From Escherichia phage KKE7M: a DNA stretch of 64,000 nt. Location: the sequence record PQ356295.1. One strand, given 5' to 3'. Under the pieces are notes generated by a model. The model made no database searches and was not told the DNA's origin. It saw nothing but the letters and a program-made list of their open reading frames with translations. A program made the translations under genes and the position numbers. Positions 9,928-47,571 of the stretch are shown here, in pieces (position 1 is the stretch's first letter; each line of letters opens with the position of its first letter).

Positions 9928-12189
9928 GTGACTCAGTATCTAAGCAAATCTATCCGTTATGTAACAAAAACAAACGGCAAGAAAGAAGAATTTAATCCAG
10001 AAAAACTTCGTAAATGGTCAGAGTTTGCTGCTGGTAAATTAAATTGGTCTGAAATTGAACTCGAAGCTGTTAAACGTTGTTACGACGGTGTGCCTACTCG
10101 TGATTTACATAAAGCTATGATAGCAGCATGTATTGATAAGAAAGATCAGGCATATAGTGATATGGCAGGTCGGTTACTTCTTGGTATGATTTATAAACAG
10201 GCTCATGGGGGATATCATAATATCCCCTCCCTCCTGGATTTCTACAATATGTCTGTAAGTAAAGGCTATTGGGGAAAAATGGATTATACAGAAGAAGAAA
10301 TTATTGAGATTGGTAAAATTGTCGATCACGATAAAAACCTAACTTATGGTTATTCCGTACTGCGCCAGATGGTTGATAAGTATCTTGTGAAAGATGCGAT
10401 CAATGATGTTGTTTTTGAATCACCACAGTTTTTATTCATTGGTGTAGCAATGAAGGTAATGGAAATTCAACCAAAAGATCGCAGAGTAGAAGACATTAAA
10501 CGTCTATATACCTACGTAAGTGATCTCAAGATTAATTTACCATCGCCTTATTTAACAACTTTGCGTACTAAGATTAAAGGTAGTGCTTCTTGTTGTCTGT
10601 TTAGAGCAGATGATACAGCAGAATCTTTAGCAATTGCTAACTATCTTGCGCATGAATATACATTGAATAATGCAGGTATTGGTGTTAACCTCCAAACCCG
10701 TGCTACAGGACAAGGTGTTAAGAACAACCGTATCGTTCACGGTGGTCTTTTACCATACCTGAAATGGATGGAGACAAGTGTTGGAGCATCAAAACAAGCA
10801 AGTCGTGGTGGAAGTGCAACAGTAACGTTTACAATATTAGAACCTGATTTTGAAGATCTGGTACGTTTGAAAAACCCAACTACTGTTAGTGAAAAACGAG
10901 TAGATAAACTTGATTACTCTATCGTAGTAAACAATGCTTTCCTGCGTCGTGCAGCAAAAGGTAAAGATTGGATGCTAGTCAGTTATGACGAAGCACCAGA
11001 ACTCTATGAGGCGCTTTATAAAAGCGAGGAAGAGTTTGAAGAAGTATATGAAAAAGTTAGTCGCAAACGAATTAAGAAGAAGTTTGTAAAAGCACGAGAT
11101 CTTCTGGCAGAAATTATTACACAAAGAGCAGAGACAGGACGTATTTATATGTTCTTTGCGGATAATGCTAATAAGCATACTCCGTTTAAGGATGTTATTT
11201 ACCAGTCAAACTTGTGCCAAGAAATTTTCTTACCTACGAAAGCATTTCACAATATGACTGATCTTTTCACAGGTGAGAATACAGAAGATCAAGAATTGGC
11301 ATTATGCTTCCTGTCTTCTATTGTAGCTGGTCGTGTTACACCAGAAGAATATGAAGATGTTGCATATTATACCGTTCTGACTATTGATAATGTTATTGAA
11401 ACAATGCAGTATCCGTTTAAACATAACGAAATCACTGCTAAAGCACGTAGGTCTATCGGTGTAGGTATTACAAACCTTGCACATTATCTGGCAAGTAATT
11501 TTGTTACTTATTCAGATCCTTACGGCAAAAAACTAATTCATGAATTAGCAGAAAGACATTATTATTGGTTAGCAAGAGCTTCTCTTCGTTTGGCAAAAGA
11601 GAAAGGTAATGCAGAATGGATGCATAAAACCAAATGGCCTGGAGGATGGTTGCCTATTGACACCTACGCTAAAGCTGTAGACGATATTGGCAATTTTAAA
11701 CTTAAAATGGATTGGGAAGGTTTACGACAAGATATCATTGCACAGGGCGGTATCCGAAATAGTGTATTAGCAGCTATTGCTCCAAATGAGTCCAGTAGTC
11801 TTGTAAGTAATACGACTAACTCTGTGTATCCTGTACGTGATACTATAGTTTATAAACAAAGCCAAAAGGGTAATGTTCTGTTTATTGTGCCAGACTACGA
11901 TAAACTAAAAGATATTTACCAATCGGCTTGGGATACACCAGATAAAGATATGGCTGAAGCATATGGACTGTTGACTAAATTCTTAGATCAAGGTGCATCA
12001 TGTGATAAGTGGATTGACTATTCTAAGATGGAAGGTGGTCGTTTATCCATTAAATCAGAAATGCAATATATTCTTCAGTTTGCAAAACTTGGTGGTAAAT
12101 CTTTGTACTATCTAAATAGCAGAACAAAATCGGCAACCTCACTCGCTCAAGAGGATGAAGAATCCGGTTGTGAGGCTTGTAAGATGTAA
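9928..12189 (+). CDS. nrdA: ribonucleotide reductase class Ia large subunit
   Basis: 753 aa; GTG start after AGGAGAGG; NLCQEI active-site motif, C-terminal CEACKM tail. Confidence 0.9.
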   Translation: MTQYLSKSIRYVTKTNGKKEEFNPEKLRKWSEFAAGKLNWSEIELEAVKRCYDGVPTRDLHKAMIAACIDKKDQAYSDMAGRLLLGMIYKQAHGGYHNIPSLLDFYNMSVSKGYWGKMDYTEEEIIEIGKIVDHDKNLTYGYSVLRQMVDKYLVKDAINDVVFESPQFLFIGVAMKVMEIQPKDRRVEDIKRLYTYVSDLKINLPSPYLTTLRTKIKGSASCCLFRADDTAESLAIANYLAHEYTLNNAGIGVNLQTRATGQGVKNNRIVHGGLLPYLKWMETSVGASKQASRGGSATVTFTILEPDFEDLVRLKNPTTVSEKRVDKLDYSIVVNNAFLRRAAKGKDWMLVSYDEAPELYEALYKSEEEFEEVYEKVSRKRIKKKFVKARDLLAEIITQRAETGRIYMFFADNANKHTPFKDVIYQSNLCQEIFLPTKAFHNMTDLFTGENTEDQELALCFLSSIVAGRVTPEEYEDVAYYTVLTIDNVIETMQYPFKHNEITAKARRSIGVGITNLAHYLASNFVTYSDPYGKKLIHELAERHYYWLARASLRLAKEKGNAEWMHKTKWPGGWLPIDTYAKAVDDIGNFKLKMDWEGLRQDIIAQGGIRNSVLAAIAPNESSSLVSNTTNSVYPVRDTIVYKQSQKGNVLFIVPDYDKLKDIYQSAWDTPDKDMAEAYGLLTKFLDQGASCDKWIDYSKMEGGRLSIKSEMQYILQFAKLGGKSLYYLNSRTKSATSLAQEDEESGCEACKM

Positions 12190-12196
12190 TGAAACT

Positions 12197-12219
12197 AGGG
12201 GGCTTTGTCCCCCTTTCTT
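12197..12219 (+). terminator. stem-loop AGGGGGC-TTTG-TCCCCCT plus TTTCTT
   Basis: Read directly after nrdA. Confidence 0.5.
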
Positions 12220-12229
12220 AAGGAGGAAT

Positions 12230-12565
12230 ATGCCTACATTAGTTGTATTACCTGGGGCAACACCACAAAGACGCTGGGGAAATTATACACTGGTAGATAG
12301 TAAAGATTTTACATTCGATTGGTGTTGTCATTATATTGCAGGTTTTCAATTTTCCAGTGTTGAAATATGGGCTTCCAATGATCCCATAGCTACCTGGTAT
12401 GCTTTAACCAGAGCAAGGTATGAGGGAGAGGTTACTATATTACTCACAAAGAGTGTATGGGACGCATTAGAGAAGGCTTACCTAGAGGATGGTATGGAGA
12501 GAGAACACATTGATACAATAAAAGCAATGTGTGATATTGTGGAGGATTTAAATGGCAGCAATTAA
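12230..12565 (+). CDS. hypothetical protein between nrdA and nrdB (111 aa)
   Basis: ATG 12230 after AGGAGG. Confidence 0.45.
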   Translation: MPTLVVLPGATPQRRWGNYTLVDSKDFTFDWCCHYIAGFQFSSVEIWASNDPIATWYALTRARYEGEVTILLTKSVWDALEKAYLEDGMEREHIDTIKAMCDIVEDLNGSN

Positions 12566-19714: not shown

Positions 19715-20206
19715 ATGACGCTAATTGAGATTGATCGCAATGGTATTGATGAATGCTATCAAGCTGGCTTAGTTAAGCCGAATGAGTTTAGACAGATTTA
19801 TATTGACAAGATTGAAAAAGAAATATCTCTTCGTTTAGAGAACATGACAACTTTGCAAAAAGTTCAGATGTTTTTTAGTTGGTTGAAAGGGGAGGATTGG
19901 CTAACTAAATATTACCAGGAATTATCTGATAGTCAAGAAGGCTTGTTTGAGTGTATAATAAATGTAGCTGGGTCTAATTCAGAATTACTCCTGATCGATG
20001 AAGAAGATTGTAAACTTCTTTTTCTTAGCAGCATCTTTCACAAGAAATCTATGTTAGTAAGAAATTGCAGTGATTTACTAAATCATCCACTAACAAGAAC
20101 TAATAAAATTCTTGTGGATAAAGAAACACTAAGAGCTATTGATTACCTCCGTAAATATGTAAGCGGTGGTAAAGCAGTCCTTAAAACACTACAGGAGGAA
20201 GTATAA
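19715..20206 (+). CDS. hypothetical protein (163 aa)
   Basis: ORF; stop overlaps next start. Confidence 0.5.
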   Translation: MTLIEIDRNGIDECYQAGLVKPNEFRQIYIDKIEKEISLRLENMTTLQKVQMFFSWLKGEDWLTKYYQELSDSQEGLFECIINVAGSNSELLLIDEEDCKLLFLSSIFHKKSMLVRNCSDLLNHPLTRTNKILVDKETLRAIDYLRKYVSGGKAVLKTLQEEV

Positions 20207-20859
20207 TGACAACAATTATTGCAACACGTAACAAAATTCTGTCTGACGGTAAGGTAACAGTAGGTAGTCGTGTAGACACTTTAAATTTCAAGAAAGTGCG
20301 TAAAATTGGGGACTACCTTGTTGGTGGTGCAGGACGTCTGTCTTCTATCCTGACTTTCTTTTCTTGGTTTGAACAAAACTTACAATGCCAGGCAGCACAA
20401 GAGACAATCCCAGGTTTGGTGATCCAGTCAGATCCCGATAAAGAAGATGAAGAGTTTGTGGCATTGGTTGTTCACCCAGACGGTAAAATTTATATGCACG
20501 AGGGTAATAATCCAACTCGAGCATATCCTTTAACTGAAGATTATTATGCAGTTGGTAGTGGGGCAGATTTTGCTTTAGCAGCTTTAGATGCTGGGGCAAC
20601 CCCGGAAGAAGCGATGGAAGTTGCAAAACTACGAGATGCTTTTTCAGGTGGTGAAACTTTTGTCGAAGAGATCGAAGAACAACTGGAGTTAACAGCGGAA
20701 GATATTCTGAACTTCAGCAAGGAGCAACTAATTAGTATGCTGTTGACTGGTGATCCTGATAGTGATGAAGCTGAAAGTATTTTAGCAGAAATGAAAGAAT
20801 CACAAGAAAAAGTATTGACAGTCTCTGAAAAACTTGATAAAGTATCCTCTGATAATTAA
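20206..20859 (+). CDS. HslV-like Ntn-hydrolase peptidase with acidic C-terminal tail (217 aa)
   Basis: N-terminal MTTII (Thr after Met), GGAGRLSS and YAVGSGADFALAALDAGAT glycine-rich segments like HslV. Confidence 0.45.
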   Translation: MTTIIATRNKILSDGKVTVGSRVDTLNFKKVRKIGDYLVGGAGRLSSILTFFSWFEQNLQCQAAQETIPGLVIQSDPDKEDEEFVALVVHPDGKIYMHEGNNPTRAYPLTEDYYAVGSGADFALAALDAGATPEEAMEVAKLRDAFSGGETFVEEIEEQLELTAEDILNFSKEQLISMLLTGDPDSDEAESILAEMKESQEKVLTVSEKLDKVSSDN

Positions 20860-20868
20860 TCTATCATA

Positions 20869-20888
20869 AACCCCCTCAAGGGGGTTAT
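20869..20888 (+). terminator. stem-loop AACCCCC-TCAA-GGGGGTT
   Basis: Read directly; weak T tract. Confidence 0.4.
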
Positions 20889-20899
20889 TAGGAGGAGAT

Positions 20900-21328
20900 A
20901 TGTTACCAGTACCTGTAATATTTGTAGAAAAAGCCTACTACTCTTTAGAACAAAACTGTAAAAGAGCTAAAAATTTTATTGAAAGTTTAGCAGAACAACG
21001 TTACACTGTATCTAAAAAGGGATGGTTTAGAAATTCACAATATTTAGTCAACCCTTTCGGAGAAGTTCGTGTGTTGTACGGCAACACAGAAAACATCTTA
21101 GAAAGAATGTTAGAACTAGATAGGATCTCCTCCTGTGATTATCAACTGTTGAAATTTTACGATGTGTCAGAAAACATTAAAAACTTTCTTGACGATTTGT
21201 CTAAACGAAAAACAGAAGAAGATACAATACCAGTATCTATGGAAGAATTAACGTTCTTAAGAGATATTATGGTTTTTGAAGAAAACCCTGAAATTACAAA
21301 AGAGGAGATTTTAAGTAGTGGCAAATAA
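20900..21328 (+). CDS. hypothetical protein (142 aa)
   Basis: ORF with AGGAGG RBS. Confidence 0.5.
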   Translation: MLPVPVIFVEKAYYSLEQNCKRAKNFIESLAEQRYTVSKKGWFRNSQYLVNPFGEVRVLYGNTENILERMLELDRISSCDYQLLKFYDVSENIKNFLDDLSKRKTEEDTIPVSMEELTFLRDIMVFEENPEITKEEILSSGK

Positions 21329-21827
21329 GTATGATCGTCCACCAACTGATTACTATCCTACTCCACAAAAATGTATAAATGCATTATTTAGTGTAATAGA
21401 TTTTAATAACCTTAAAGAAGAAGGTTTTATTTTTGCAGAACCGTGTAAAGGCGCTGCTGCTGCAATTTATCAACATTTTCCAGAAGGATCAGAATATTGT
21501 GAGTTAGAAGAAGGGAAGGATTATTTTAACCACGAATGGCATACTAAGCCGGATATTATAATCACAAATCCACCATTCAGACTTGCACTTGAGTTCTTGC
21601 AAAAGAGCTTAAAAGAAGCAGACGTTTGCATATACTTGTTGCGTCTTGGGTTCCTAGAGTCTATTAAACGAAGGGAATTCCATAAACAGAATCCACCAAC
21701 AAATTTGATTGTTCTCTCTGAACGACCATCTTTTGTTGCAGGTGGCACTGACAAGACAGCATATGCTTGGTACGTCTACGACCCAAAAAACAGGCTGGGT
21801 TTAACTCAACCTTTCTATTTTGTTTAA
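21318..21827 (+). CDS. minimal SAM-dependent methyltransferase-like protein (169 aa)
   Basis: YYPTP...FAEPCKGAAAA...DIIITNPPF resembles gamma-class amino-MTase motifs X, I, IV; no target-recognition domain. Confidence 0.4.
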   Translation: MANKYDRPPTDYYPTPQKCINALFSVIDFNNLKEEGFIFAEPCKGAAAAIYQHFPEGSEYCELEEGKDYFNHEWHTKPDIIITNPPFRLALEFLQKSLKEADVCIYLLRLGFLESIKRREFHKQNPPTNLIVLSERPSFVAGGTDKTAYAWYVYDPKNRLGLTQPFYFV

Positions 21828-21840
21828 GAGGAGCATTTTT

Positions 21841-22071
21841 ATGACCGAGAAATTTATTGTTACTATGGAACTCACCTTTGATGAAGAAGATTTTGATCTT
21901 CACGTATCAACTAAAGCAGATAACATTCACACAACACAGAGTGTTGCAATCGCTATGTTCTTTAAACAAGCAATTGCAAAACAAGCTGAAGTGTGTGCTG
22001 GTTTAGCTGTAGAGTATGCAGAAGTTGTCAAGGTTCTTGAAAATGCTCGTAACAACGATTGGGAAGAATAA
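21841..22071 (+). CDS. hypothetical protein (76 aa)
   Basis: ATG 21841 after AGAGGAG. Confidence 0.4.
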   Translation: MTEKFIVTMELTFDEEDFDLHVSTKADNIHTTQSVAIAMFFKQAIAKQAEVCAGLAVEYAEVVKVLENARNNDWEE

Positions 22072-22274
22072 TGGCATACAATTACTATCTGGTATATTTT
22101 AACGAAACTAAGAAAAAAGACACAGGGACTAATGTTTATGCGGAATCCGAAGAACACGCAAAAGCTATTGGTTCAGTGCTTCTTTCTAGAATAGCAGGTG
22201 AAGAAATTCCTGTAGAAGCTATCTTTGCAGAAGTTGATCCTGGTATTCAAGAAGATGATATTACCACTACTTAA
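22071..22274 (+). CDS. hypothetical protein (67 aa)
   Basis: ATG 22071 overlapping upstream stop. Confidence 0.4.
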   Translation: MAYNYYLVYFNETKKKDTGTNVYAESEEHAKAIGSVLLSRIAGEEIPVEAIFAEVDPGIQEDDITTT

Positions 22275-22331
22275 CTGTTGACTTTAACGTTAAGGTAGTG
22301 CATACTTCCTGTAACAGAACAGGAGGGTATT

Positions 22332-22994
22332 ATGAAGTTTGTACTGTATCATCGACTTTCTAAGAAGAAACAACAAGGCAACCAGTATGGTATAGAATCA
22401 CAGGAAGCAGATATCCAACGCTTCCTGGATTCACAAGAAAATTATACTATTGTAGGTAGCTTTGCAGAGTTTTATTCTGGTAAAGGCGATTGGAAGCAAC
22501 GTAGAGAGCTTGTAAAAGCTGTTAATCTTTGCAAAGAAACAGGTGCTACACTTGTTGTTGCTAAGGTTGACCGTCTTGGACGTAACACAGCTTCTGTTGC
22601 AACCTTGTTAGAGATGATTAATGTACGAATAGCAACGATGCCCTCCGCTGAAAATATGATAATAAATATTTTAGCAGTTCTGGCAGAAGAAGAGGCTCGT
22701 GCAATATCGGATCGTGTTAAGAAGAGCCTTAAGGTAGCAAAAGCGAAGGGAACGCTTCTTGGTGCAGCAAACCCTAAATACAAAAGAACAGATTATACGA
22801 AAACGGAAGAAGCAAAACGCTCAAAAGAGTTTGCGCTTTCTTTAAAAGATTCTTTAGTTGCATACAGGGCTTGTAAAACGCCATATATGACGATTGCAAA
22901 GCATCTGAATGAATCAGGAAAGAGAACTATTCGTGGGAGTTTGTTCGATGCCAAAGCGGTACAACGTCTTTGTGCAAAATTGAATATTAAATAA
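22332..22994 (+). CDS. small serine recombinase (resolvase/invertase family)
   Basis: YHRLSKKKQQ...ESQ catalytic Ser region, LVVAKVDRLGRN motif, C-terminal HTH-like segment. Confidence 0.65.
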   Translation: MKFVLYHRLSKKKQQGNQYGIESQEADIQRFLDSQENYTIVGSFAEFYSGKGDWKQRRELVKAVNLCKETGATLVVAKVDRLGRNTASVATLLEMINVRIATMPSAENMIINILAVLAEEEARAISDRVKKSLKVAKAKGTLLGAANPKYKRTDYTKTEEAKRSKEFALSLKDSLVAYRACKTPYMTIAKHLNESGKRTIRGSLFDAKAVQRLCAKLNIK

Positions 22995-23003
22995 GGAGGA
23001 AAC

Positions 23004-23207
23004 ATGGCAGTTCAATCTTTTGAGGAGACTGTTAAAAAACAATTCCTATCGAAGCGAGCGATGGTTGAATTTTTGCATTTTCTCGAAGTAGATAGGGTAC
23101 TTATTGAGACTACACCAGATGGTAACTGGCAAGTCTCGTATATTGCCACCAGGCATATCGTAGACAGTACGAAAGAAGAAATTTCGGAAGTTACGGTTGC
23201 TAGTTAA
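23004..23207 (+). CDS. hypothetical protein (67 aa)
   Basis: ORF with AAGGAGG RBS. Confidence 0.4.
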   Translation: MAVQSFEETVKKQFLSKRAMVEFLHFLEVDRVLIETTPDGNWQVSYIATRHIVDSTKEEISEVTVAS

Positions 23208-23218
23208 AGGAGTTAAAT

Positions 23219-23791
23219 ATGCGTTTAGCTTTTAACGGGAAGATAAGCACAGCAAACATATTATCAGCAATAGGATTATTAGGTAAAAAATTCACACCTT
23301 TCAGTTTACCCGTTTGTGTAGATTTTGATCATGTATTTGATATTAATAATCCTTCACGTTGTATCGCCAGAAGTAATATTGATAACCCAAGTGAAAATCT
23401 GTTTTATATTACTAAACCATCCCAAGCAATTTTGAATCAATGGGAAGCAGGTCTGATTAAACCAGGTAAATATTTTGCATTACTACCTTGTAAATCATTG
23501 GCTATAGAGGACAGTCTAAACTATGCAAACAATCTTATTGTTACAGCATTCATTGTCTCAGAAAAAGAAGAAACTGCGGCACTTGCAAACACTGTTAAAT
23601 CTTTGTATGATTCTTTGGGTGTTACTTACACTACATTCGTTTGTGAAGATATTCCTCATTGCGTTGAATTTGTAGTAAATGGTGTAACTGTATGTCGTGT
23701 AGAAACAACGCAAGATGAGGACGTTTTTATTACTGTAGCCGATGTAATATCTGAACCTGTGTTTAGTTACGCAGTTTCATTAACACATTAA
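23219..23791 (+). CDS. hypothetical protein (190 aa)
   Basis: ORF with AAGGAG RBS. Confidence 0.5.
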   Translation: MRLAFNGKISTANILSAIGLLGKKFTPFSLPVCVDFDHVFDINNPSRCIARSNIDNPSENLFYITKPSQAILNQWEAGLIKPGKYFALLPCKSLAIEDSLNYANNLIVTAFIVSEKEETAALANTVKSLYDSLGVTYTTFVCEDIPHCVEFVVNGVTVCRVETTQDEDVFITVADVISEPVFSYAVSLTH

Positions 23792-23801
23792 GGAGAAGGG
23801 G

Positions 23802-24128
23802 ATGAAAATAACGACAGAACAGGCTTTAATAGACAAAGGAAGGGAAATCTTAGAAAGTCATTTGGAGGATATTCAAAGGACTCCAGGGTATCTCGGCTGG
23901 CGTATACAAGAAGCCGTCGATTTTCTACCCCGAAAAAATAAAGAGATTGAGGTAAGATCTCTATTCCTCCTTGTTAAAGTAGATGGTGACGCTATATACA
24001 AAGATGTAGCGTCTCACATTGAACAAATAGAAGAAAAAGCCTACAAAGAATTTGCAGATCTTGTTGTAGAACATAATATAGAAGGTAAAGTTAATATCTT
24101 TATACTTATGGATTTTGAGGAGAATTGA
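23802..24128 (+). CDS. hypothetical protein (108 aa)
   Basis: ORF with AGGAGAAGG RBS. Confidence 0.5.
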   Translation: MKITTEQALIDKGREILESHLEDIQRTPGYLGWRIQEAVDFLPRKNKEIEVRSLFLLVKVDGDAIYKDVASHIEQIEEKAYKEFADLVVEHNIEGKVNIFILMDFEEN

Positions 24129-24871
24129 TGCTAGTATATCAAGAAATTAGTGTAAAAGATGATCAAGACCTGTTTATTATTGGTGATTTACATGGTTGCT
24201 TTGATTTGTACCAGAAAGGTGTTAATACTTTAGGTATCCGAGATCAAGATGTTGTTGTATCTTTAGGAGATCTTACAGATCGCGGCAAGCAGAATTTTCG
24301 TTGTACCGTTGAATTCACCAGAAAGCTAAATCGCTATGGTATTCGTGGAAATCACGAAGATATGATGATTAAAGGGTTGCTAGAAGGTGATAGACGATAT
24401 TACGAATGTTGGTTTCAGAACGGAGGCCATACAGTTCTAAATGAGTGTGGAGAAGAAGGTGCAACTGCTCTTGCTTTGATGCTAGAAGACTTACCTGTTG
24501 TACTTGTTGTCAATTATCGTAATATGAAACTAGGCTTTATTCACGGAGGATATCCTTCAGTTTTGGAACATCTGCCAGTGACGGAAGTTTTGCCATTTTG
24601 TTCGAATATGAATAAAGAACAAGTATCTCGATTCACAGAATCTTTAATGTGGGATCGTGATATGATAGATTGCGCCCTTGAAGGGATTCTTCTTCCTAGA
24701 GTTTCAGGAGTAGATTATGTATTTCACGGGCATTCTTATGTTCCTAAACCTGTGATTAGCAGTAATAGGGTATATATGGATACAGGATCTTGCTTCAATG
24801 GTAATTTAACCTTTGCATATTTTGATGATTCAAATACGTTACAATTTTATTCTACTTTAGAGGAGGACTAA
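24128..24871 (+). CDS. Ser/Thr protein phosphatase (calcineurin-like metallophosphoesterase)
   Basis: GDLHGC, GDLTDRG, GNHE motifs. Confidence 0.85.
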   Translation: MLVYQEISVKDDQDLFIIGDLHGCFDLYQKGVNTLGIRDQDVVVSLGDLTDRGKQNFRCTVEFTRKLNRYGIRGNHEDMMIKGLLEGDRRYYECWFQNGGHTVLNECGEEGATALALMLEDLPVVLVVNYRNMKLGFIHGGYPSVLEHLPVTEVLPFCSNMNKEQVSRFTESLMWDRDMIDCALEGILLPRVSGVDYVFHGHSYVPKPVISSNRVYMDTGSCFNGNLTFAYFDDSNTLQFYSTLEED

Positions 24872-25191
24872 TGTATAAAGTCACAATTAAAGAGACGGTA
24901 GGGAATATTACGAAAGAAACTACTATTGAAACAGAAGATGTTGAGTTAGTCAAAGAGCTTTTATTTCCAAAACCAGAAATAAAAGATAATGACGAACAGT
25001 TGGATGAAGATAATGAGACAGCAAGGGATAAATGGAAGAAACAACTAGCGGAGATTTGGAAAAAGCCTCAAGTAACGCCTCCATTTGATCCTCGTACACC
25101 TTATAATCCCTGGGAAATTGGAAGCCCTTGGTATACGTATCCTATTACTCCAATTGTTACTCCTAATATTATTCCCAATATTACTTGTTAA
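24871..25191 (+). CDS. hypothetical protein with Pro-rich C-terminus (106 aa)
   Basis: ORF overlapping upstream stop. Confidence 0.4.
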   Translation: MYKVTIKETVGNITKETTIETEDVELVKELLFPKPEIKDNDEQLDEDNETARDKWKKQLAEIWKKPQVTPPFDPRTPYNPWEIGSPWYTYPITPIVTPNIIPNITC

Positions 25192-25201
25192 GGAGAAAAC
25201 C

Positions 25202-25780
25202 ATGAGCGATTTATTCTACACAGGTGTTGGTAGCAGAGACATTACAGACGAAGAATGGGACACTATGGTAGCTGTTGCAAAATGGTTATCTACATGGTTC
25301 ATTTTGCGATCTGGTAAAGCAGAAGGTGCAGATTCCGCATTTGAATGCGGGGTATATGATAGTGGAAACAATACAAAGAAAGAAATATACATTCCTTGGC
25401 CTTCGTTTAAAGGTAATGAGATAGAGGGAGAGGTTATTGTTCTTGACAGACCCGATAGTGTAAACTATGCTCTAACTTTGCAATATGCAAAAGAATTGCA
25501 TCCAGCTTGGGACAGATTATCTCAAGGTGCTAAAAAATTACATCAAAGAAATATCCACCAAGTTCTTGGCAGAGATCTTGAGAATCCAAAACCATCTTGT
25601 TTTCTTTTAGCTTGTGCAAATACAGATAAGAATGGAGATCCTTTAGGTGGTACAAGAACAGCTTGGATGTTGGCTAAAAAGTTTAATGTTCCTTGTTTTA
25701 ATATTCGAGGTAAAAGTAAAAAACAAATCTTCGAATTTATTAAACCTATTTTAGAGGAGAATGGTCTTGTCCAGAAATAA
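25202..25780 (+). CDS. Rossmann-fold LOG/DprA (SLOG)-like protein (192 aa)
   Basis: ATG 25202 after AAGGAG; GVGSRD and PLGGTRTAWMLA (PGGxGT-like) motifs. Confidence 0.4.
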   Translation: MSDLFYTGVGSRDITDEEWDTMVAVAKWLSTWFILRSGKAEGADSAFECGVYDSGNNTKKEIYIPWPSFKGNEIEGEVIVLDRPDSVNYALTLQYAKELHPAWDRLSQGAKKLHQRNIHQVLGRDLENPKPSCFLLACANTDKNGDPLGGTRTAWMLAKKFNVPCFNIRGKSKKQIFEFIKPILEENGLVQK

Positions 25781-26285
25781 TATAAGTGTCATTAAAGATA
25801 GCTTTATTGATGTAACAAACGATATTGTACCTACAATACAATATATAGTTGAGGCACAAGGTTTAAACTTCATACGTGATAAAGTTAAGATTGTTTTTCA
25901 TAACACTCCAGGTTTTGTAATAGTAGGTTCAACAGAAACGATGTATCCTACAGATCTGATCACTTTAGACAAAAACTTAACACAAGAAGAAGTAGAAATT
26001 CTTAACCTCTATTGGTTAGGTTTTAAAAGATATGAGGATACAGCTTTATCCCGAATGTCAACTATTTTAGCTAATATTCTGGTGCGGAAAATTTCTAAAA
26101 TATGGGATGAAGAAAACCCAGATGAAATAATTTTACACTTTGCTAAACCGGAAGACGGGGCATATGATATAGACACATCTGAAATGGCTTATGGGTTTAT
26201 TATTTCTGGTAATGTATTACAGATGGAATCTTTATTGTATGTTGAGACAGTAAAACACAATAACAATTACGAGGAGGTTGTATGA
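25761..26285 (+). CDS. hypothetical protein (174 aa)
   Basis: ORF. Confidence 0.5.
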   Translation: MVLSRNNISVIKDSFIDVTNDIVPTIQYIVEAQGLNFIRDKVKIVFHNTPGFVIVGSTETMYPTDLITLDKNLTQEEVEILNLYWLGFKRYEDTALSRMSTILANILVRKISKIWDEENPDEIILHFAKPEDGAYDIDTSEMAYGFIISGNVLQMESLLYVETVKHNNNYEEVV

Positions 26286-26539
26286 AAGGTTTAGAGTTTA
26301 ACTTTGTAGATGCGTGGGAAGGATGGGATGAACTAGGAGTAGGGGATTTATGTTTTTATGATGTTACCTTGAAGGAAGAATACAAACATCTAGCTCCTAG
26401 TGAAGATTGCGATGTGATTCTATCTATTCTATTAAGTCAGTCTATAGTGCAATTCGATTTCTTAAAAGGTAGTGAATGTATTGAAAGTAAAGCATTCCGT
26501 TTGGAAGTTTCTCTTGGTGAAGAAATTCCTGTAGAATAA
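26282..26539 (+). CDS. hypothetical protein (85 aa)
   Basis: ORF overlapping upstream stop. Confidence 0.45.
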   Translation: MKGLEFNFVDAWEGWDELGVGDLCFYDVTLKEEYKHLAPSEDCDVILSILLSQSIVQFDFLKGSECIESKAFRLEVSLGEEIPVE

Positions 26540-26541
26540 TA

Positions 26542-26565
26542 TAAACCCGCTTCGGCGGGTTTTTT
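26542..26565 (+). terminator. rho-independent terminator (AAACCCGC-TTCG-GCGGGTTTTTTG)
   Basis: Perfect hairpin with T tract; same hairpin family recurs at 31648 and 58113. Confidence 0.7.
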
Positions 26566-29347: not shown

Positions 29348-30084
29348 TAGAACGAAAACCCTTACCAGATAGAGATTACTTGTTATCAAGGTTTAGTGTG
29401 GAGAATGGTCGTCTTGTTTGGAAACCTAAACCTTCTACAACAAAAGAGAACAAAAGGTGGAATAGCAGATACGCAGGGAAGATTGCAGGGACTATTGATA
29501 AAGTTGGTTACTCTCATGTCAAAATAGATGGTATTGTATATTTGGAGCACAGAATTTGTTTTAAAATGTATCATAATTACTGTCCAGATGTTATAGACCA
29601 TGACGACGGCAATAAACTTAATAATGCGGAAAGTAATTTATTGGATAGTAACTATTTATTAAATAATAACAATAGACACGTAGATGGGTTAGAAGGTATT
29701 TATGAAAAGGATGGTGTTTTTCTTTGGGTTATAAACTACAACCAAGAAACTTTCTCTGTTTCAGGTTTCAAAACTAAAGAGGAAGCTACTGTAGCTAGAG
29801 CTTTAGCAAAACAAGAAATTTTGAAAGGATCTTATATCAAAAAAGAAAAGAAGCGTATAGATAACACTTCAGGATTAAGTTGTGTGTTTGTGGCAACAAG
29901 AGAGAGAACATTCTTTTTCAAGTTTGTGTTTGACAAGACCGCTTATTGCAAATATGGTTTCAACGATCCAGAGAGATGTGCTATAGCTCTGGAGAAGTTA
30001 AGGTTGAAGGTGATGAAAGAAAAATATAAACCTGCAAATAAAAGCATTTGCGAAAAATATAAGGAGGAGATTTATGCCGCGTAG
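29344..30084 (+). CDS. HNH endonuclease-like protein (HNH_3-type, 246 aa)
   Basis: GYSHVKIDG...LEHRI...VIDHDDGNKLNNAESNL pattern. Confidence 0.5.
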   Translation: MIERKPLPDRDYLLSRFSVENGRLVWKPKPSTTKENKRWNSRYAGKIAGTIDKVGYSHVKIDGIVYLEHRICFKMYHNYCPDVIDHDDGNKLNNAESNLLDSNYLLNNNNRHVDGLEGIYEKDGVFLWVINYNQETFSVSGFKTKEEATVARALAKQEILKGSYIKKEKKRIDNTSGLSCVFVATRERTFFFKFVFDKTAYCKYGFNDPERCAIALEKLRLKVMKEKYKPANKSICEKYKEEIYAA

Positions 30085-30889
30085 AGTCATATTCATAACT
30101 GGCGCAGGACTATCTGTGGATAGCGGTATCCCAGCTTTTAGAACAGATACTTCTTCAGGGGAGGCGTTATGGTCTTCTTATGATCTTTCTGAGGTCTGTG
30201 ACATTTTCAACTTCCGTGATGGTTATCAGCAAGAACAAGGTGTTCTTGATGCTATGGGTGGTTTAGATGCGGAAGGATATAACCTCTACCGTAAAACTCA
30301 CGACTTTTACAATAAACGTCGCGTGGAATTAGCGAAAGTTGACCCGAATCCAGCACATCTTCAGATTGGAGAATGGTTCAAAAAATATGGCCCAGAACGA
30401 ATTCTTAACATTACTACTAACGTGGATGACCTCCTTGAACGAGCAGGAGTAAATAGGGAAGAAGTGCTACATGTGCACGGTTTTCTTCCTGAAATTACTT
30501 TTCAAAGAAAAGCTGGACAACCTACAATTGTAAAAGATGTTGGTTATCAAGCCATAGATGTAGATGACTACCATTATGTAAAACCTAATGTAATTTTCTT
30601 TGGAGAAGCTGCTCCACTTTACACAGATATGTATCATATTCTTGATACACTAACGGCTCAAGATATGGTTGTAGTAGTAGGATGTTCAAACCAAGTTATC
30701 AATTTTAATTGGGAATTATTCCCTGCACTTAATATGGGTACAAAAATGATCGTTGTTAACCCAGGAATTAATTACGAAGAAACTCTTCTTTACGAAGATA
30801 GAGGAGTCTTTGTTTATCGAGAAAAGGCCGCAGATGCTTTTAGCAATCCTGCTTTCATAAAAATGATAGAAGATCATTTGACTAAATAA
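30074..30889 (+). CDS. SIR2-family (sirtuin-like) protein lacking zinc-binding cysteines
   Basis: GAGLSVDSGIPAFR, NPAH, TTNVDDLLERAG, HVHG, VIFFGE, VVVGCS, VVNPGIN match sirtuin motifs; no CxxC...CxxC module. Confidence 0.75.
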   Translation: MPRRVIFITGAGLSVDSGIPAFRTDTSSGEALWSSYDLSEVCDIFNFRDGYQQEQGVLDAMGGLDAEGYNLYRKTHDFYNKRRVELAKVDPNPAHLQIGEWFKKYGPERILNITTNVDDLLERAGVNREEVLHVHGFLPEITFQRKAGQPTIVKDVGYQAIDVDDYHYVKPNVIFFGEAAPLYTDMYHILDTLTAQDMVVVVGCSNQVINFNWELFPALNMGTKMIVVNPGINYEETLLYEDRGVFVYREKAADAFSNPAFIKMIEDHLTK

Positions 30890-31257: not shown

Positions 31258-31293
31258 AAAAGCCCCTAGAAGCGATTCTAGGGGCTTTATTTT
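31258..31293. terminator. bidirectional terminator at convergence of plus and minus gene blocks
   Basis: AGCCCCTAGAA-GCG-ATTCTAGGGGCT hairpin flanked by A and T tracts. Confidence 0.65.
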
Positions 31294-31647: not shown

Positions 31648-31667
31648 AAAACCCGCCGAAGCGGGTT
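31648..31667 (-). terminator. terminator hairpin AAACCCGC-CGAA-GCGGGTTT
   Basis: Downstream of minus gene ending 31674; T tract on minus strand. Confidence 0.55.
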
Positions 31668-31673
31668 TATGCG

Positions 31674-43186: not shown

Positions 43187-43546
43187 ATCAGACTCCTTTA
43201 TAAATTTACGTTTCATGCTACACATCATACAGCGTCTTTTCATCTATTACAAGAACAGCAACCTAGAAACATCATTAATAGAGGAATTAGTATAGGATTT
43301 CCCTATCAATTATTCTATATATACCTAATATTTTTAACACACCCCTTTGTACATAATATAGACAAATAAATATCTATGCCACAAAAATTTTCCGGTATAC
43401 CCGATTTATTTCGACACACCCCCTTTTCATAAGCGTAAAGCCAATAATATCAATAACTTGCCGCAAAATACTGCTCGCTTGCGAGAGGTGCTTAACGCGA
43501 TTTTTAGCGCCCCCGATTTCTGCCGACCGTCCCCCTCAAATATCAA

Positions 43547-43561
43547 TGAGAATTATTATCA
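43547..43561. promoter_or_regulatory. Fur-box-like 7-1-7 palindrome TGAGAATTATTATCA
   Basis: 14/15 match to TGATAAT-N-ATTATCA. Confidence 0.45.
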
Positions 43562-43741
43562 TTTGCATTATCATTCAATGACTTATAAGACTTTTGATTA
43601 TTTTCTGAGCAAGAAAGGCACTACTCACAACAAAACAGATAAATTATAAGTAAATCAATGACTTGGCAAGTCTAAACATCTATATACACCTTGCCAAATG
43701 AAATGATCCTGCGTGAAATAGTGCTACCCGTGGAAGATAGC

Positions 43742-43756
43742 TGATAATGATTATCA
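43742..43756. promoter_or_regulatory. Fur-box-like palindrome TGATAATGATTATCA (perfect 7-1-7 match), with TATACT -10-like hexamer 14 bp downstream
   Basis: Exact match to Fur 7-1-7 consensus TGATAAT-N-ATTATCA. Confidence 0.55.
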
Positions 43757-44279
43757 TTTGCATATTTTCTATACTATAAAACTACCTAAAAATCAAGATA
43801 ATTCTGATTTATTGCGCTTTTAAGAGAATAGGCTCAACAAATAGGCTATAACTATGCTCAACAAATGATAGGTTATATGGGGCAATAGTATGAAAAACCA
43901 TCTATTCAGATATAAATAATTTTGCGCAATAATGGTGATATTTTTCTTGACAAGAAAGATTTCTTTGTGTTCACATAGCGTCCCCTGGAAGGTGGCGCAT
44001 TATGATCATCAATGTCATTGTTCACGATGTTTATTATTGAATAGCTTATTATATGTAGCTTATATTATAGCCAATGTTCCAAACATTAGCTAATAATAAC
44101 GCACCGCAACAATGTAAGGGATACAATATACCATGTATATTGTTGCGCTTGCAATTGTTGCAAGCTACATAAGCACAAATAATAACTATCGGTGATGGTT
44201 ATTATGTGGGGTGTGTAGTTGCGTTATTATTAGCCGCCTATGTGTCCGGCATAGGCTGCTAATGATACGCTTGCTAATT

Positions 44280-44640
44280 ATATTTCTTGTTATAATTATT
44301 GTATGAAATGATTACGGTATGAAATGATTATTTAGGTAATAGATAGTAAGGTAAAGATTAGATCATAAATAGATAGGATATTAATTATTTAGTAATGTTA
44401 CTAACAATTTAATAGTTACTTTGTGCAACAATTCGATAGATTATAGTTATAGTTTTAAAGGTTAGATAGATTATATTTAGCTTGGTAATGATTTATATTA
44501 GTTATTGTTGTTTAATATAAGGTTATCAATGAGATAGTAACAGTAAGTTATAAATAAAGGTGAAATAATTAGCTTTAATTTAGTTAGATAACTTATTATT
44601 TTATAGGTTAGATGGTCATAAGTTAAGAATGATTATCATT
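44280..44640. repeat. AT-rich iteron-like repeat block (TAGATAG repeats, 14-bp direct repeat GTATGAAATGATTA x2)
   Basis: Read directly; ORF-free. Confidence 0.5.
44624..44638. promoter_or_regulatory. Fur-box-like palindrome TAAGAATGATTATCA
   Basis: 13/15 match to 7-1-7 consensus. Confidence 0.4.
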
Positions 44641-44681
44641 ATTGCATTATGCAGTTTATTGCATAAATAATCAGCTATAAA

Positions 44682-44696
44682 TGAGAATGATTATTA
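44682..44696. promoter_or_regulatory. Fur-box-like palindrome TGAGAATGATTATTA
   Basis: 13/15 match to 7-1-7 consensus. Confidence 0.4.
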
Positions 44697-44903
44697 TTTA
44701 AGAGGAAAGACAAGAAAAAGGCTGTTTTTGCCAGATAGTTACATGGAGAAATTAAAAATAAGCGGTCTAAAACACGTTGTAAGCGCCTTATGATCTTCAT
44801 GGTATGGTTGTTCATCTGCTCCTTGATTAGCTCGATACCGCGATCTATTCACTTTTTTCGGTGAACGTTTTTGATAGGTAAAAGCTATCATCTTTATTTA
44901 GGT

Positions 44904-45653: not shown

Positions 45654-46074
45654 TTTCTTTTTCCTGTTTTCGTTTTGGGTATGTTCTACCCTCTAAAAAC
45701 AATATTAAACTGCTATGATTTATCGGTCAATAGATGAGATTGTAAAGATTTGATAGTTTATTCCTTTGATGTTTTGTTGTTTGATAGTTATTAGCTATCA
45801 ATATATAGCGGGATCTTCCGGTGATTATCTTCCCCTGTCCCCAGGTGCCGCCCGTTCCATAATAATAATCAAAAGCAGGGTAAAAGGCAAGATAAAAAGC
45901 AAATTATTTCCTATGTGCTTTAAACGCTCTAAACAGCTTTATAACAGCTTTTTCATCCTGGTAAGGGGATTAATCATCCCTACCTTGTTTAAGCGGTTAC
46001 AGTCGGTTTTAGATGGTTTTACGCCACCTTTACGCCTATTCTTTACGTGTTGTTTCCATCGTGAAAAAAGAATA

Positions 46075-46107
46075 CAAAAAAGGGCGCTTAGTGCGCCCCT
46101 TTCTTTT
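46075..46107. terminator. bidirectional terminator hairpin GGGCGC-TTAGT-GCGCCC
   Basis: A tract before and T-rich tract after. Confidence 0.55.
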
Positions 46108-46115
46108 ACCGTGTA

Positions 46116-46505
46116 TTAATATTCGTTATAATACATCGCTAATTTTTCATCAAAAGCCGATTGACGATCAGCATACTCCCAAAACATTTCCTGATCCTGT
46201 TGGTCATCTTCATCCATCATGTTAAACTGTGCTACTTCCTGGTAAGTGATCGCCATATTATAACGATAGGTGATCTCTTCTGCGATGTTTTCCGGTAAAG
46301 ATGATTCTACACTGTCTAACAGCATATTTAACATCATTTCAGCCGCTTTTTCATCATTATCAAAGCAGTAAGCAGACCATGCCGCATGATGCTTATTCTT
46401 CATCTTTGCAATCAAGCCATTGACTAAAAAAGGCGCTACGTTGTTAACGATACCCTGTAAAGATTGGAATTTTTCAACGTTAGAAACAGAAACCAGGTTG
46501 CGCAT
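46116..46505 (-). CDS. hypothetical protein (129 aa)
   Basis: Start refined; track start ATG lies inside the 5' stem-loop. Confidence 0.5.
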   Translation of the reverse strand: MRNLVSVSNVEKFQSLQGIVNNVAPFLVNGLIAKMKNKHHAAWSAYCFDNDEKAAEMMLNMLLDSVESSLPENIAEEITYRYNMAITYQEVAQFNMMDEDDQQDQEMFWEYADRQSAFDEKLAMYYNEY

Positions 46506-46528
46506 AGTATTTACCTTTTTGATTACCT

Positions 46529-46587
46529 GGCGGGAAACCATTTCCCGCCTACGTGGTAAATAATACCATACTGGGGATCGGTGTCAA
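46529..46587 (-). promoter_or_regulatory. promoter plus 5' stem-loop cassette (TTGACA-N16-TATTAT then GGCGGGAAATGGTTTCCCGCC)
   Basis: Read directly; hairpin 46529-46549. Confidence 0.55.
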
Positions 46588-46593
46588 TACTTT

Positions 46594-46980: not shown

Positions 46981-47192
46981 GCTGTACGCTCAACAATAAT
47001 AATGGTTTGCGGGATCTCGTTTTCTACTACTATCAAGGCTTTTTTCTGCGTGATAGATATCTTTACCCGCTTCAGCGTGGCGGTAAAGTCTTTCATTTCG
47101 TCACGTGGTGTTTTAGTGCAATACCAGATCTCAGGTTTACCTATTTGCAAGCCGCGTAAAAATTCCGTTTTACCTGTCTTATTCGTGATCAT
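46977..47192 (-). CDS. hypothetical protein (71 aa)
   Basis: Start refined to ATG with AAGGTG RBS. Confidence 0.45.
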   Translation of the reverse strand: MITNKTGKTEFLRGLQIGKPEIWYCTKTPRDEMKDFTATLKRVKISITQKKALIVVENEIPQTIIIVERTA

Positions 47193-47202
47193 TTGTTTCA
47201 CC

Positions 47203-47307: not shown

Positions 47308-47325
47308 GATGCTACCCTCATTAGT

Positions 47326-47492: not shown

Positions 47493-47510
47493 TTTAGTTC
47501 TCTCTATTCT

Positions 47511-47570: not shown

Positions 47571-47571
47571 A

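What the first reader, a model, noticed from the sequence alone, without database searches (positions are those of the whole stretch)
22332..22994. Small serine recombinase in an otherwise lytic-looking gene set
The protein has the resolvase/invertase catalytic region and DRLGRN motif with a short HTH tail (220 aa). No att site, large integrase or repressor was seen in the window. It may drive an invertible segment (for example host-range switching) or resolve replication dimers.
Basis: partly seen in the sequence, partly recalled or inferred. Interest (0 to 1): 0.5.

Follow-up and report, generated by a model that had tools for sequence, protein, structure and literature searches.

The report
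Orphan serine recombinase in lytic coliphage
This is a real, intact and strongly conserved small DNA-recombinase gene (phi92 gp053) in a strictly lytic E. coli phage, but I found no flippable DNA segment for it to act on, so its target is still unknown and the finding is fairly ordinary.

Summary
The ORF at 22332-22994 (+) is real. It encodes a 220-aa small serine recombinase: Pfam Resolvase 78 bits, Y6/R8/S10, DRLGRN at residues 80-85, and a confident AlphaFold model. The window is a phi92-like Justusliebigvirus, and the protein is phi92 gp053, already annotated as 'DNA invertase/resolvase'. It is 99-100% identical in 55 deposited records and under strong purifying selection (9 synonymous, 0 non-synonymous differences versus phi92). 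All ten orthologs examined have a TTGACA-type promoter directly upstream. The C-terminal tail is a four-helix domain that resembles the start of the large-serine-recombinase 'recombinase domain', not the Hin/gamma-delta HTH.

The host-range-switch idea is not supported. No inverted-repeat-bounded segment was found in about 150 kb. The tail-fibre module and the other regions checked are collinear across about 55 genomes. The single inversion polymorphism (window about 60.5-61.8 kb) has no inverted repeats, has non-reciprocal junctions, and is fixed by lineage. No prophage copy exists in 5,426 E. coli genomes.

The gene sits at a different locus in the sister genus Phapecoctavirus, so it behaves as a self-contained cassette. 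Homologs on minimal plasmids suggest a resolvase-like role, but that is inferred. The target site is unknown.

The parts
22278..22306 (+). sigma-70-like promoter TTGACT-17 nt-CATACT in the 57-nt spacer after the upstream gene's stop codon
   Evidence: Consensus scan, 9/12 matches. On its own this is no better than chance in this AT-rich region (11 sites found, 10.5 expected). However, all 10 orthologs examined at 35-100% aa identity have a (c)TTGACA -35 box, a 16-18 nt spacer and a -10-like hexamer at the same distance from the ATG. Function is inferred, not shown.
22321..22327 (+). ribosome-binding site AGGAGGG, 4 nt before the ATG
   Evidence: Read from the sequence. The phi92 record annotates an RBS at the homologous place.
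22332..22994 (+). serine recombinase gene (220 aa plus stop), equal to phi92 gp053 / YP_009012384.1
   Evidence: ORF. 100% aa identity to phi92 gp053 and 99-100% in 55 records. dN/dS about 0 to 0.09.
22341..22754 (+). catalytic (resolvase-type) domain including the long helix E, residues 4-141
22359..22361 (+). codon of the predicted nucleophile Ser10 (Y6-H-R8-L-S10)
   Evidence: Sequence. At least 90% conserved in the family alignment. Invariant in the 6-sequence alignment A2.
22569..22586 (+). DRLGRN motif, residues 80-85 (active-site Asp/Arg cluster)
   Evidence: Sequence. D80, R81, L82 and R84 are invariant in 27 homologs.
22809..22979 (+). C-terminal four-helix putative DNA-binding domain, residues 160-216, with motif TIAKHLNESGKRTIRGSLFDAKAVQRL
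   Evidence: AF2 helices 160-170, 172-180, 185-194, 207-216 at pLDDT above 90. No Pfam hit. LSR structures (Bxb1, SPbeta, PhiC31) align 150-159 residues against 101-115 for catalytic-domain-only entries. The NCBIfam CcrB model aligns residues 4-212 to model positions 10-225. One homolog carries PF07508.

Best explanation
SHOWN: window 22332-22994 encodes a small serine recombinase with an intact active site and strong purifying selection (phi92 gp053 family). It has an N-terminal resolvase-type catalytic domain, a long helix E and a short four-helix C-terminal domain. That tail resembles the first part of the 'recombinase domain' of large serine recombinases, not the HTH_7 of Hin or gamma-delta. 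The genome is a strictly virulent phi92-like myovirus. The gene is a self-contained unit (promoter-like element, RBS, ORF) that is present throughout Stephanstirmvirinae but lies at a different locus in Phapecoctavirus. No invertible segment goes with it. INFERRED: host RNA polymerase transcribes it early from its own sigma-70-type promoter. The protein binds as a dimer to a short, still unidentified site through the C-terminal domain. Two sites synapse in a tetramer, Ser10 cuts all four strands, one half of the tetramer rotates 180 degrees, and the ends are rejoined. The most likely substrate is the phage's own replicating DNA, in a resolvase-type (deletion or monomerisation) reaction between directly repeated or sister-copy sites. 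This would parallel the lone recombinase on small plasmids that carry homologs. A tail-fibre switch is unlikely.
For: Identity and integrity: Pfam 78.3 bits. Catalytic residues are invariant in 27 homologs spanning 31-88% identity. The AF2 model has pLDDT 88.9. Fold matches go to serine recombinases only. Selection: 9 synonymous and 0 non-synonymous differences versus phi92, and dN/dS of 0.06-0.09 at greater distance. The protein is 99-100% identical in 55 records whose DNA differs by 1-2%. Own transcription unit: 10/10 orthologs have TTGACA plus 16-18 nt plus a -10-like box, and KP13-16 has a terminator just upstream. Cassette behaviour: phAPEC8 keeps the gene order gp056-055-054-[45-bp spacer]-052-051-049 without the recombinase, which sits 16 kb away among early genes. 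No gene other than the recombinase is shared with the Vibrio phage locus. Not an invertase. Not an integrase: no match in 5,426 E. coli genomes. Resolvase-like role in the family: the best sequence-profile hits among solved structures are Tn3, Sin and gamma-delta resolvases. Full-length 35%-identical homologs sit on 6-7 kb plasmids, one beside a replication initiator and a ParA/RHH partition pair. In a clade of marine viral contigs the gene sits in the replication/recombination module, next to an apparently YqaJ-like exonuclease and a primase-helicase-like ORF; those names are my reading of the ORF sequences, not a search result.
Against: No recombination site was identified. The 57-nt upstream spacer has no second copy in the genome and no repeated subsites. 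The terminal non-coding region is only 70-80% conserved between genera and shows no conserved dyad. Stephanstirmvirinae genomes are linear with direct terminal repeats (PMC12695924; phi92 DTR feature). I would expect such phages to package from concatemers, which leaves no obvious need for dimer resolution. The Schickermooser copy carries at least five frameshifting indels in its first 330 nt. If these are real and not sequencing errors, the gene is dispensable at least in culture. The plasmid context is circumstantial, and the family is functionally mixed: several bacterial homologs have adjacent inverton-like inverted repeats. The only published statements on function are unsupported guesses (PMC10282059).
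Confidence: 0.4

Rival explanations
1. DNA invertase (Gin/Cin/Hin/Mpi-like) that flips a segment of the phage genome, for example to switch tail fibres or a promoter.
For: PHROG 125 and many GenBank records call it 'DNA invertase'. A weak full-length match to the Mpi master-invertase model, 33.5 bits. An inversion polymorphism does exist in the genus, at window about 60.5-61.8 kb: about 31 records have one orientation and about 23 the other. Some bacterial homologs have 21-36 nt inverted repeats directly upstream, which look like invertons.
Against: Near the gene there are only 70-89% matches of 18-28 nt, as chance would give. Genome-wide, the top inverted matches are terminator palindromes and one 72% paralog pair. 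The tail module is collinear in all phi92-like records, and tailspike differences are replacements, not flips. The polymorphic block has no inverted repeats at its ends (no better than shuffles). Its junctions are not reciprocal: a 98-nt spacer with two separate genes in one form, and an in-frame fusion ORF in the other. Block and flank sequences cluster by orientation, 98.9% within and 93.5% between. Across 80 viral loci with homologs, the best nearby inverted repeat is no better than in shuffled sequence. The tail lacks HTH_7. The Mpi score is far below its cut-off of 272.
Confidence: 0.07
2. Moron-like or selfish cassette whose substrate is not the phage's own replication intermediates. It would either promote its own spread between co-infecting phages or act on host, prophage, plasmid or rival-phage DNA as an accessory weapon or anti-defence function.
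For: It has its own promoter and RBS and no conserved partner gene. It occupies different loci in sister genera, with a clean empty site. Its distribution is patchy across unrelated phages of Vibrio, Shewanella, Cellulophaga, Microcystis and Arthrobacter. No target site was found in the phage genome.
Against: It is fixed, not sporadic, within each genus: all 55 Justusliebigvirus records have it at one site and the Phapecoctavirus records listed have it at another. Adjacency to the gp056 methyltransferase is kept in phi92, FKP3, L021, 05F01 and KP13-16. So only one relocation needs to be assumed. The cassette ends carry no terminal repeats or duplicated target. Strong purifying selection points to a benefit for the phage.
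Confidence: 0.2
3. Small serine integrase that allows rare integration or pseudolysogeny. My own recollection is that the filamentous phage phiRSM uses a resolvase-like small serine recombinase this way; I did not check this here.
For: Small serine recombinases are counted among prophage integrases in recent surveys (PMC12823448). PHROG 95 'integrase' is the second-best family, at 1.5e-25.
Against: Window 20000-26000 has no megablast match in 5,426 complete E. coli genomes. No repressor, excisionase or att-like repeat is annotated in phi92, ESCO32 or J-01. The phages were isolated and described as lytic. The genome is a 148-kb linear DTR genome.
Confidence: 0.05
4. Domesticated DNA-binding regulator that no longer recombines, for example a repressor of its own or other early promoters.
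For: Palindromes overlap the -10 region or 5' UTR in some orthologs: 10-bp arms in FKP3, 6-bp arms in L020, and hairpins over the RBS in L021, 05F01 and VPMCC14. From my own knowledge, Tn3-type resolvases also repress their own promoter.
Against: Every catalytic residue is conserved across the family down to 31% identity, which a pure DNA-binder would not need. The palindrome is not conserved in the window itself, where only 4 of 6 arm positions match (my reading).
Confidence: 0.08

Closest known systems
Tn3 / gamma-delta / Sin resolvases (small serine recombinases with solved structures)
   Same: Same catalytic fold and active-site residues (Y6, R8, S10, D80/R81/R84, E121, R128) and a long helix E. 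They are the best sequence-profile matches in the PDB: Tn3 6.4e-17, Sin 2.6e-16, gamma-delta 1.4e-15. The protein is of similar size.
   Different: The matches stop at about residue 150-169. The tail is not HTH_7. There is no multi-subsite res next to the gene, since the upstream spacer is 57 nt and holds a promoter. There is no transposase or plasmid context.
Phage DNA invertases Gin (Mu), Cin (P1), and Hin/Pin
   Same: Phage- or prophage-borne small serine recombinases of about 190-220 aa. Profile matches to Gin and Hin structures at 5e-15 and 1.5e-14 over the catalytic domain. Databases label this gene 'DNA invertase'.
   Different: There is no adjacent invertible segment and no inverted crossover sites. 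The tail-fibre genes are not rearranged in about 55 genomes. The C-terminal domain is of a different type. Dependence on Fis and an enhancer was not assessed.
Large serine recombinases (Bxb1, PhiC31, SPbeta SprA, CcrB)
   Different: It has only 220 aa. It lacks the rest of the recombinase domain, the zinc-ribbon domain and the coiled coil. The CcrB score is 35.8 bits against a cut-off of 900. No attP/attB and no prophage were found.
Mpi-family master DNA invertase and YneB resolvase-like proteins (NCBIfam NF009949, NF049883)
   Same: Similar length, with end-to-end alignment: residues 6-196 to model positions 5-197 of 203, and residues 3-193 to 2-190 of 211. From my own knowledge, Mpi acts in trans on remote sites.
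   Different: Scores are 33.5 and 29.8 bits against cut-offs of 272 and 175, so it is not a member. No remote inverted-repeat sites were found in the phage genome.
Unnamed 'recombinase family protein' of about 215-235 aa on plasmids and in bacterial and viral genomes
   Same: Same full-length architecture. There are 3,402 clusters at E<=1e-30, most of the best 150 being 214-240 aa. Identity is 31-40% over 98-100% of the length on plasmids and chromosomes. This is the family the phage protein actually belongs to.
   Different: None of these has been characterised as far as the tools show. Contexts are mixed: minimal plasmids with rep and par, inverton-like repeats in some bacteria, and replication modules of marine phages.

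Membership tests
Serine recombinase superfamily (PF00239 catalytic domain) | Sequence match above the curated threshold | tested here: met
   78.3 bits against a gathering score of 23.3, residues 4-141.
Serine recombinase superfamily (PF00239 catalytic domain) | Nucleophilic Ser in the Y-x-R-x-S motif, plus the D-R-x-x-R cluster and the helix-E Glu/Arg | tested here: met
   Y6, R8, S10, D80, R81, R84, E121 and R128 are conserved in 27 homologs.
Serine recombinase superfamily (PF00239 catalytic domain) | Alpha/beta catalytic fold followed by a long helix E | tested here: met
Serine recombinase superfamily (PF00239 catalytic domain) | Catalyses strand exchange through a covalent 5'-phosphoserine intermediate | not testable with these tools
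   This needs biochemistry.
Hin/Gin/Cin/Pin DNA invertases | C-terminal HTH_7 domain with a minor-groove arm | tested here: not met
   No PF02796 hit on the whole protein at E<=1, nor on the tail at E<=10. PDB profile matches end at about residue 155.
Hin/Gin/Cin/Pin DNA invertases | Inverted crossover sites bounding a segment next to the gene | tested here: not met
   Only chance-level inverted repeats within +/-8 kb. None genome-wide apart from terminators.
Hin/Gin/Cin/Pin DNA invertases | Both orientations of the segment found among isolates or reads | tested here: not met
   About 55 genomes are collinear over the regions checked. The one inverted block is lineage-fixed and lacks repeats. 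Read-level data were not available.
Hin/Gin/Cin/Pin DNA invertases | Fis-bound recombinational enhancer | not tested
   No scan was made, and a consensus match would not be decisive.
Tn3/gamma-delta/Sin resolvases | res site with a crossover site plus accessory subsites adjacent to the gene | tested here: not met
   The upstream spacer is 57 nt, holds a promoter-like element, and has no repeated subsites or second genomic copy.
Tn3/gamma-delta/Sin resolvases | Carried by a replicative transposon or plasmid | tested here: not met
   It lies in a virulent phage DNA-metabolism cluster, and no transposase is annotated.
Large serine recombinases (phage integrases) | More than 400 aa, with a full recombinase domain, zinc ribbon and coiled coil | tested here: not met
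   220 aa. No PF07508 or PF13408 hit. CcrB 35.8 bits against 900.
Large serine recombinases (phage integrases) | Integrated prophage copies or attB in host genomes | tested here: not met
   No match of window 20000-26000 in 5,426 complete E. coli genomes.
IS607-family serine transposases | DNA-binding (MerR-like) domain N-terminal to the catalytic domain | tested here: not met
   The catalytic domain starts at residue 2 and the extra domain is C-terminal.
Mpi / YneB NCBIfam equivalogs | Score above the curated cut-off | tested here: not met
   33.5 against 272 and 29.8 against 175.

The most novel reading that the evidence does not exclude
This early-expressed recombinase, conserved across the subfamily, is neither an invertase nor a classical resolvase. 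Instead it performs a step specific to virulent DTR phages or to phage-host conflict. Examples would be joining or circularising incoming linear genomes at a short site in the terminal region, or cutting and rearranging host, prophage or rival-phage DNA. That would be a new biological role for a small serine recombinase with a truncated LSR-type DNA-binding domain.
Probability: 0.12. Interest if true: 0.7.

Novelty: new member of a known kind. Interest (0 to 1): 0.28.

Why it matters
Phage-therapy screening pipelines flag any 'recombinase' as a possible lysogeny marker. phi92-like and phAPEC8-like phages are therapy and BASEL-collection phages. Showing that this gene is a conserved orphan recombinase, with no integration evidence in 5,426 E. 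coli genomes and no host-range switch, argues against reading it as a lysogeny marker. Scientifically it raises a modest open question. What does a strongly constrained serine recombinase, apparently transcribed early, do in strictly lytic phages with terminally repeated linear genomes? The same short architecture occurs in thousands of uncharacterised proteins in phages, plasmids and bacteria. If the target were found, a compact 220-aa recombinase with a simple DNA-binding domain might also be a useful tool.

Tried and rejected
1. Inverted repeats within +/-8 kb of the gene and genome-wide on a 149.7-kb composite of the window plus phi92. Only terminator palindromes, RBS/start-codon look-alikes and one 72% paralog pair turned up.
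2. Inversion census by megablast of five 25-kb chunks and one 4.5-kb chunk against 50,697 phage records. Extra 'places' were traced to record ends, the DTR, paralogs or tailspike replacement; J-01 was checked and ESCO32.
3. The 60.5-61.8 kb inversion looked at first like the missing invertible segment. I rejected it as an active switch after junction analysis, orientation-specific divergence and the absence of boundary repeats.
4. Search for a second copy of the gene's upstream spacer as a candidate site: chance level only.
5. A site in the terminal repeat or terminal non-coding region: it is only 70-80% conserved between genera and has no conserved dyad. The abundant palindromes there are 7-1-7 Fur-box look-alikes, whose odd centre does not fit a 2-bp staggered serine-recombinase crossover (the crossover geometry is my own knowledge).
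6. Self-mobilising element: no terminal repeats or target duplication at filled versus empty sites.
7. Conserved partner gene: none across distant phages. Adjacency to the gp056 methyltransferase is kept in most of the subfamily but lost in Phapecoctavirus.
8. Pfam on the isolated tail: nothing.
9. Literature: only unsupported remarks about function. The phi92 genome paper is not in the held library.
10. Cluster-member names for ten close profile hits: none carried a name.
11. The first genome-contig scan with A1 failed for lack of a conserved stretch. It was repeated with A2.

Full report

2. THE TAIL IS NOT THE CLASSICAL HTH. Neither the whole protein nor the isolated tail hits HTH_7 or any other Pfam family. 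Sequence-profile matches to solved resolvases and invertases stop at residue 150-169. Large serine recombinases with their recombinase domain (Bxb1, SPbeta, PhiC31) align 150-159 residues, against 101-115 for catalytic-domain-only structures. The NCBIfam CcrB model aligns residues 4-212, and one homolog carries PF07508. I read the tail as a truncated LSR-type recombinase-domain module. No curated NCBIfam family reaches its cut-off. A profile search shows the same 215-235-aa architecture in thousands of unnamed proteins: 3,402 clusters at E<=1e-30.

3. WHERE IT COMES FROM. The window is 98-99% identical to about 55 phi92-like phages (Justusliebigvirus, Stephanstirmvirinae). The protein is phi92 gp053 (YP_009012384.1). 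It is 99-100% identical in 55 records and is variously annotated as DNA invertase, resolvase, recombinase or hypothetical. The annotations of phi92, ESCO32 and J-01 list no other recombinase, integrase, excisionase or repressor. I did not scan the window's other ORFs myself. Window 20000-26000 has no match in 5,426 complete E. coli genomes, so nothing indicates a prophage state. Published remarks on the gene are guesses only, for example that it keeps 'concatemers as single genome' (PMC10282059). Some genome papers overlooked it altogether.

4. IS IT FUNCTIONAL? Against phi92 the gene has 9 synonymous and 0 non-synonymous differences. Against homologs at 72-79% identity, dN/dS is about 0.08-0.09 with dS saturated. 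All ten orthologs examined (35-100% identity; E. coli, Klebsiella and Vibrio phages and metagenomic contigs) have a TTGACA -35 box, a 16-18 nt spacer and a -10-like hexamer about 50-60 nt before the ATG. In KP13-16 an intrinsic terminator lies just upstream. In the window alone the promoter match is not above chance. The comparative conservation is what supports an independent, probably early, host-polymerase transcript. That step is inferred.

5. TEST OF THE INVERTIBLE-SEGMENT IDEA.
(a) Near the gene there are only 18-28-nt inverted matches of 70-89%, typical of chance.
(b) On a 149.7-kb composite genome, the best inverted matches are G+C-rich terminator palindromes, one 72% paralog pair, and RBS/start-codon look-alikes.
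(c) Deposited genomes served as a proxy for isoforms. Window 1-25000 is one collinear place in 51 of 55 close records, and the rest are split by record ends. The tail-sheath-to-tailspike region (phi92 65-90 kb) is collinear in all; the only difference is replacement of the endosialidase gene, and the one odd record (J-01) proved collinear on inspection. Window 25001-50000 and phi92 90-115 kb are collinear. For phi92 40-65 kb only 42 records have 80% in one place. I did not resolve the remainder, and tRNA matches to T4-like phages inflate that search.
(d) As a positive control for the method, the same repeat scan on 80 bacterial loci with homologs found 20 with inverted repeats of at least 30 bits, against 2 in shuffles. 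Several of these are 21-36-nt pairs just upstream of the gene. On 80 viral loci it found no excess: the median was 25.7 bits in both real and shuffled sequence.

6. THE ONE INVERSION FOUND. A local comparison with ESCO32 showed that window 60635-61791 matches on the opposite strand while both flanks match on the same strand. About 31 records share the window's arrangement and about 23 share the other. The cleanest pair is phiWec187 versus VEcB. An 872-bp block is inverted at 93.3% identity, with flanks at 96.5% and 98.8%. The block holds a divergent promoter region, two or three small genes and the 5' part of a small gene I read as DUF2829-like.
- The junctions are not reciprocal. One form has an in-frame fusion ORF (183 aa in phiWec187, 203 aa as listed in the window). 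The other has separate 59-aa and 112-aa genes plus a 98-nt spacer.
- There are no inverted repeats at the boundaries; the best score is no better than shuffles.
- Block and flank sequences cluster by orientation: 98.9% within, 93.5-93.9% between.
This is an old rearrangement carried by two sublineages, not a programmed switch. I cannot exclude that the recombinase once caused it.

7. CASSETTE BEHAVIOUR. phAPEC8 (Phapecoctavirus, 57% aa identity) keeps the gene order methyltransferase gp056, gp055, gp054, gp052, gp051, gp050, phosphatase. Between the gp054 and gp052 homologs it has only a 45-bp spacer with a terminator-like hairpin. Its recombinase lies instead among the small early genes, after the homolog of phi92 gp013, co-oriented with them. 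FKP3, 05F01 and a 72%-identical metagenomic contig keep the phi92 position. In KP13-16 the methyltransferase-recombinase pair has moved together. One relocation of a unit made of promoter, RBS and ORF explains all of this. There are no terminal repeats or target duplications. I therefore see moron-like shuffling rather than self-transposition. The Vibrio phage locus shares no gene with phi92 except the recombinase.

8. WHAT IT PROBABLY DOES. Shown: an intact enzyme, strong constraint, its own expression signals, no invertible segment, no prophage. Inferred: a conservative serine-recombinase reaction at an unidentified short site. Three observations point toward a resolvase-type role on replicating phage DNA. 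First, by sequence profile it is closest to the Tn3, Sin and gamma-delta resolvases. Second, full-length homologs sit on 6-7-kb plasmids, one beside a replication initiator and a ParA/RHH pair. Third, it lies in replication/recombination modules in a marine phage clade and in the DNA-metabolism cluster here. Four points weigh against this. No site was found. DTR phages have no obvious need for dimer resolution. The Schickermooser copy may be disrupted. The family is functionally mixed. I put 0.4 on this reading, 0.2 on an accessory or selfish role acting on other DNA, and under 0.1 each on invertase, integrase and pure regulator.

9. LIMITS. Serine-recombinase sites can be about 28 bp with degenerate half-sites and can escape repeat searches seeded on 10-11 exact bases. 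Deposited assemblies are consensus sequences, so minority isoforms are invisible. Two stretches were not checked across all relatives: phi92 115-128 kb was not searched, and window 50-59 kb was compared only with ESCO32.

10. VERDICT. The gene is a genuine orphan small serine recombinase that is already annotated. Novelty is low: it is a member of a large, uncharacterised short-tailed branch of a known superfamily. Interest is 0.28.

Noticed in passing
window 60433-61796 (block 60635-61791); compare L012 41057-41927, L013 3129-3999, L015 3138-4009: An inversion polymorphism of about 0.9-1.2 kb at a divergent-promoter junction. About 31 phi92-like records have the window's orientation and about 23 the opposite. 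In the window's form a small domain I read as DUF2829-like is fused in frame to a gp141-like domain (ORF 60185-60796, 203 aa). In the other form these are separate 59-aa and 112-aa genes. There are no boundary repeats, the junctions are not reciprocal, and the sequences cluster by orientation.
   Followed up: yes
window 43547-43561, 43742-43756, 44624-44638, 44682-44696, 47354-47368, 55179-55193, 56025-56039, 56054-56068, 56077-56091: Nine matches (up to 2 mismatches) to the 7-1-7 palindrome TGATAATNATTATCA, which from my own knowledge is the E. coli Fur-box consensus, against 1.1 expected. They cluster in the non-coding region around the genome terminus and as three tandem copies near 56.05 kb. 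They could be iron/Fur-responsive early promoters or a Fur decoy. This was not pursued.
   Followed up: partly
window about 43492-43834 (terminus at 43834); non-coding stretch about 43250-44900: The window runs across the physical ends of the phi92-type genome. phi92 position 1 aligns to window 43834, several deposited records begin exactly there, and phi92 annotates a 343-bp left direct terminal repeat. The source assembly is therefore circularly permuted or joined relative to the virion DNA. About 1.6 kb around the terminus has no annotated gene.
   Followed up: partly
L096 2307-3046 (Escherichia phage Schickermooser, NC_048196.1 about 11216-11955): The recombinase ortholog carries at least five small frameshifting indels within its first 330 nt, while the remainder is about 99-100% identical to phAPEC8. 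It is annotated as a 128-aa C-terminal fragment. It is either a real pseudogene or a locally poor assembly.
   Followed up: partly
window 12157-12534, against phi92 29950-30675 (L001 9525-10181): Between nrdA and nrdB, phi92 has a 657-bp free-standing HNH endonuclease gene (gp074). The window has an unrelated 378-bp stretch instead. This looks like a presence/absence polymorphism of the homing-endonuclease kind.
   Followed up: no
records MG065639, MG065645, MG065656, MG065689 (labelled 'Campylobacter phage'), OP562383 ('Acinetobacter phage'), OK210077 ('Serratia phage'): The Campylobacter-labelled and Serratia-labelled genomes are about 98% identical to this coliphage over 25 kb, with an identical or 99.5%-identical recombinase. 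The Acinetobacter-labelled genome carries the Phapecoctavirus-type recombinase (56.9% aa identity). The host labels look doubtful and may reflect contamination or mislabelling.
   Followed up: no
window 26538-26563, 31648-31670, 58112-58137; also 31259-31288: Near-identical copies of a G+C-rich terminator-like palindrome (AAAACCCGCCGAAGCGGGTTTT) recur at module boundaries. A 30-nt palindrome sits at the convergent junction near 31.27 kb. These account for the strongest 'inverted repeats' in the genome.
   Followed up: partly
window 45726-48756, against L099 5954-8525 (Phapecoctavirus ASO2A): About 2.6 kb of small early genes just inside the right genome end is 91-92% identical between the two genera. 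Conserved genes elsewhere are about 77% identical. This suggests recent exchange or unusually strong constraint on this early region.
   Followed up: no
L108 4334-4595, L166 2945-4594, L176 4395-4562, L132 1865-4140, L171 2245-3643 (bacterial loci; recombinase gene starts at 5001): Several bacterial homologs of this short recombinase have 21-36-nt inverted repeats bounding segments of 0.1-2.2 kb directly upstream of the gene. These are candidate invertons, which suggests that parts of the family are true invertases.
   Followed up: no
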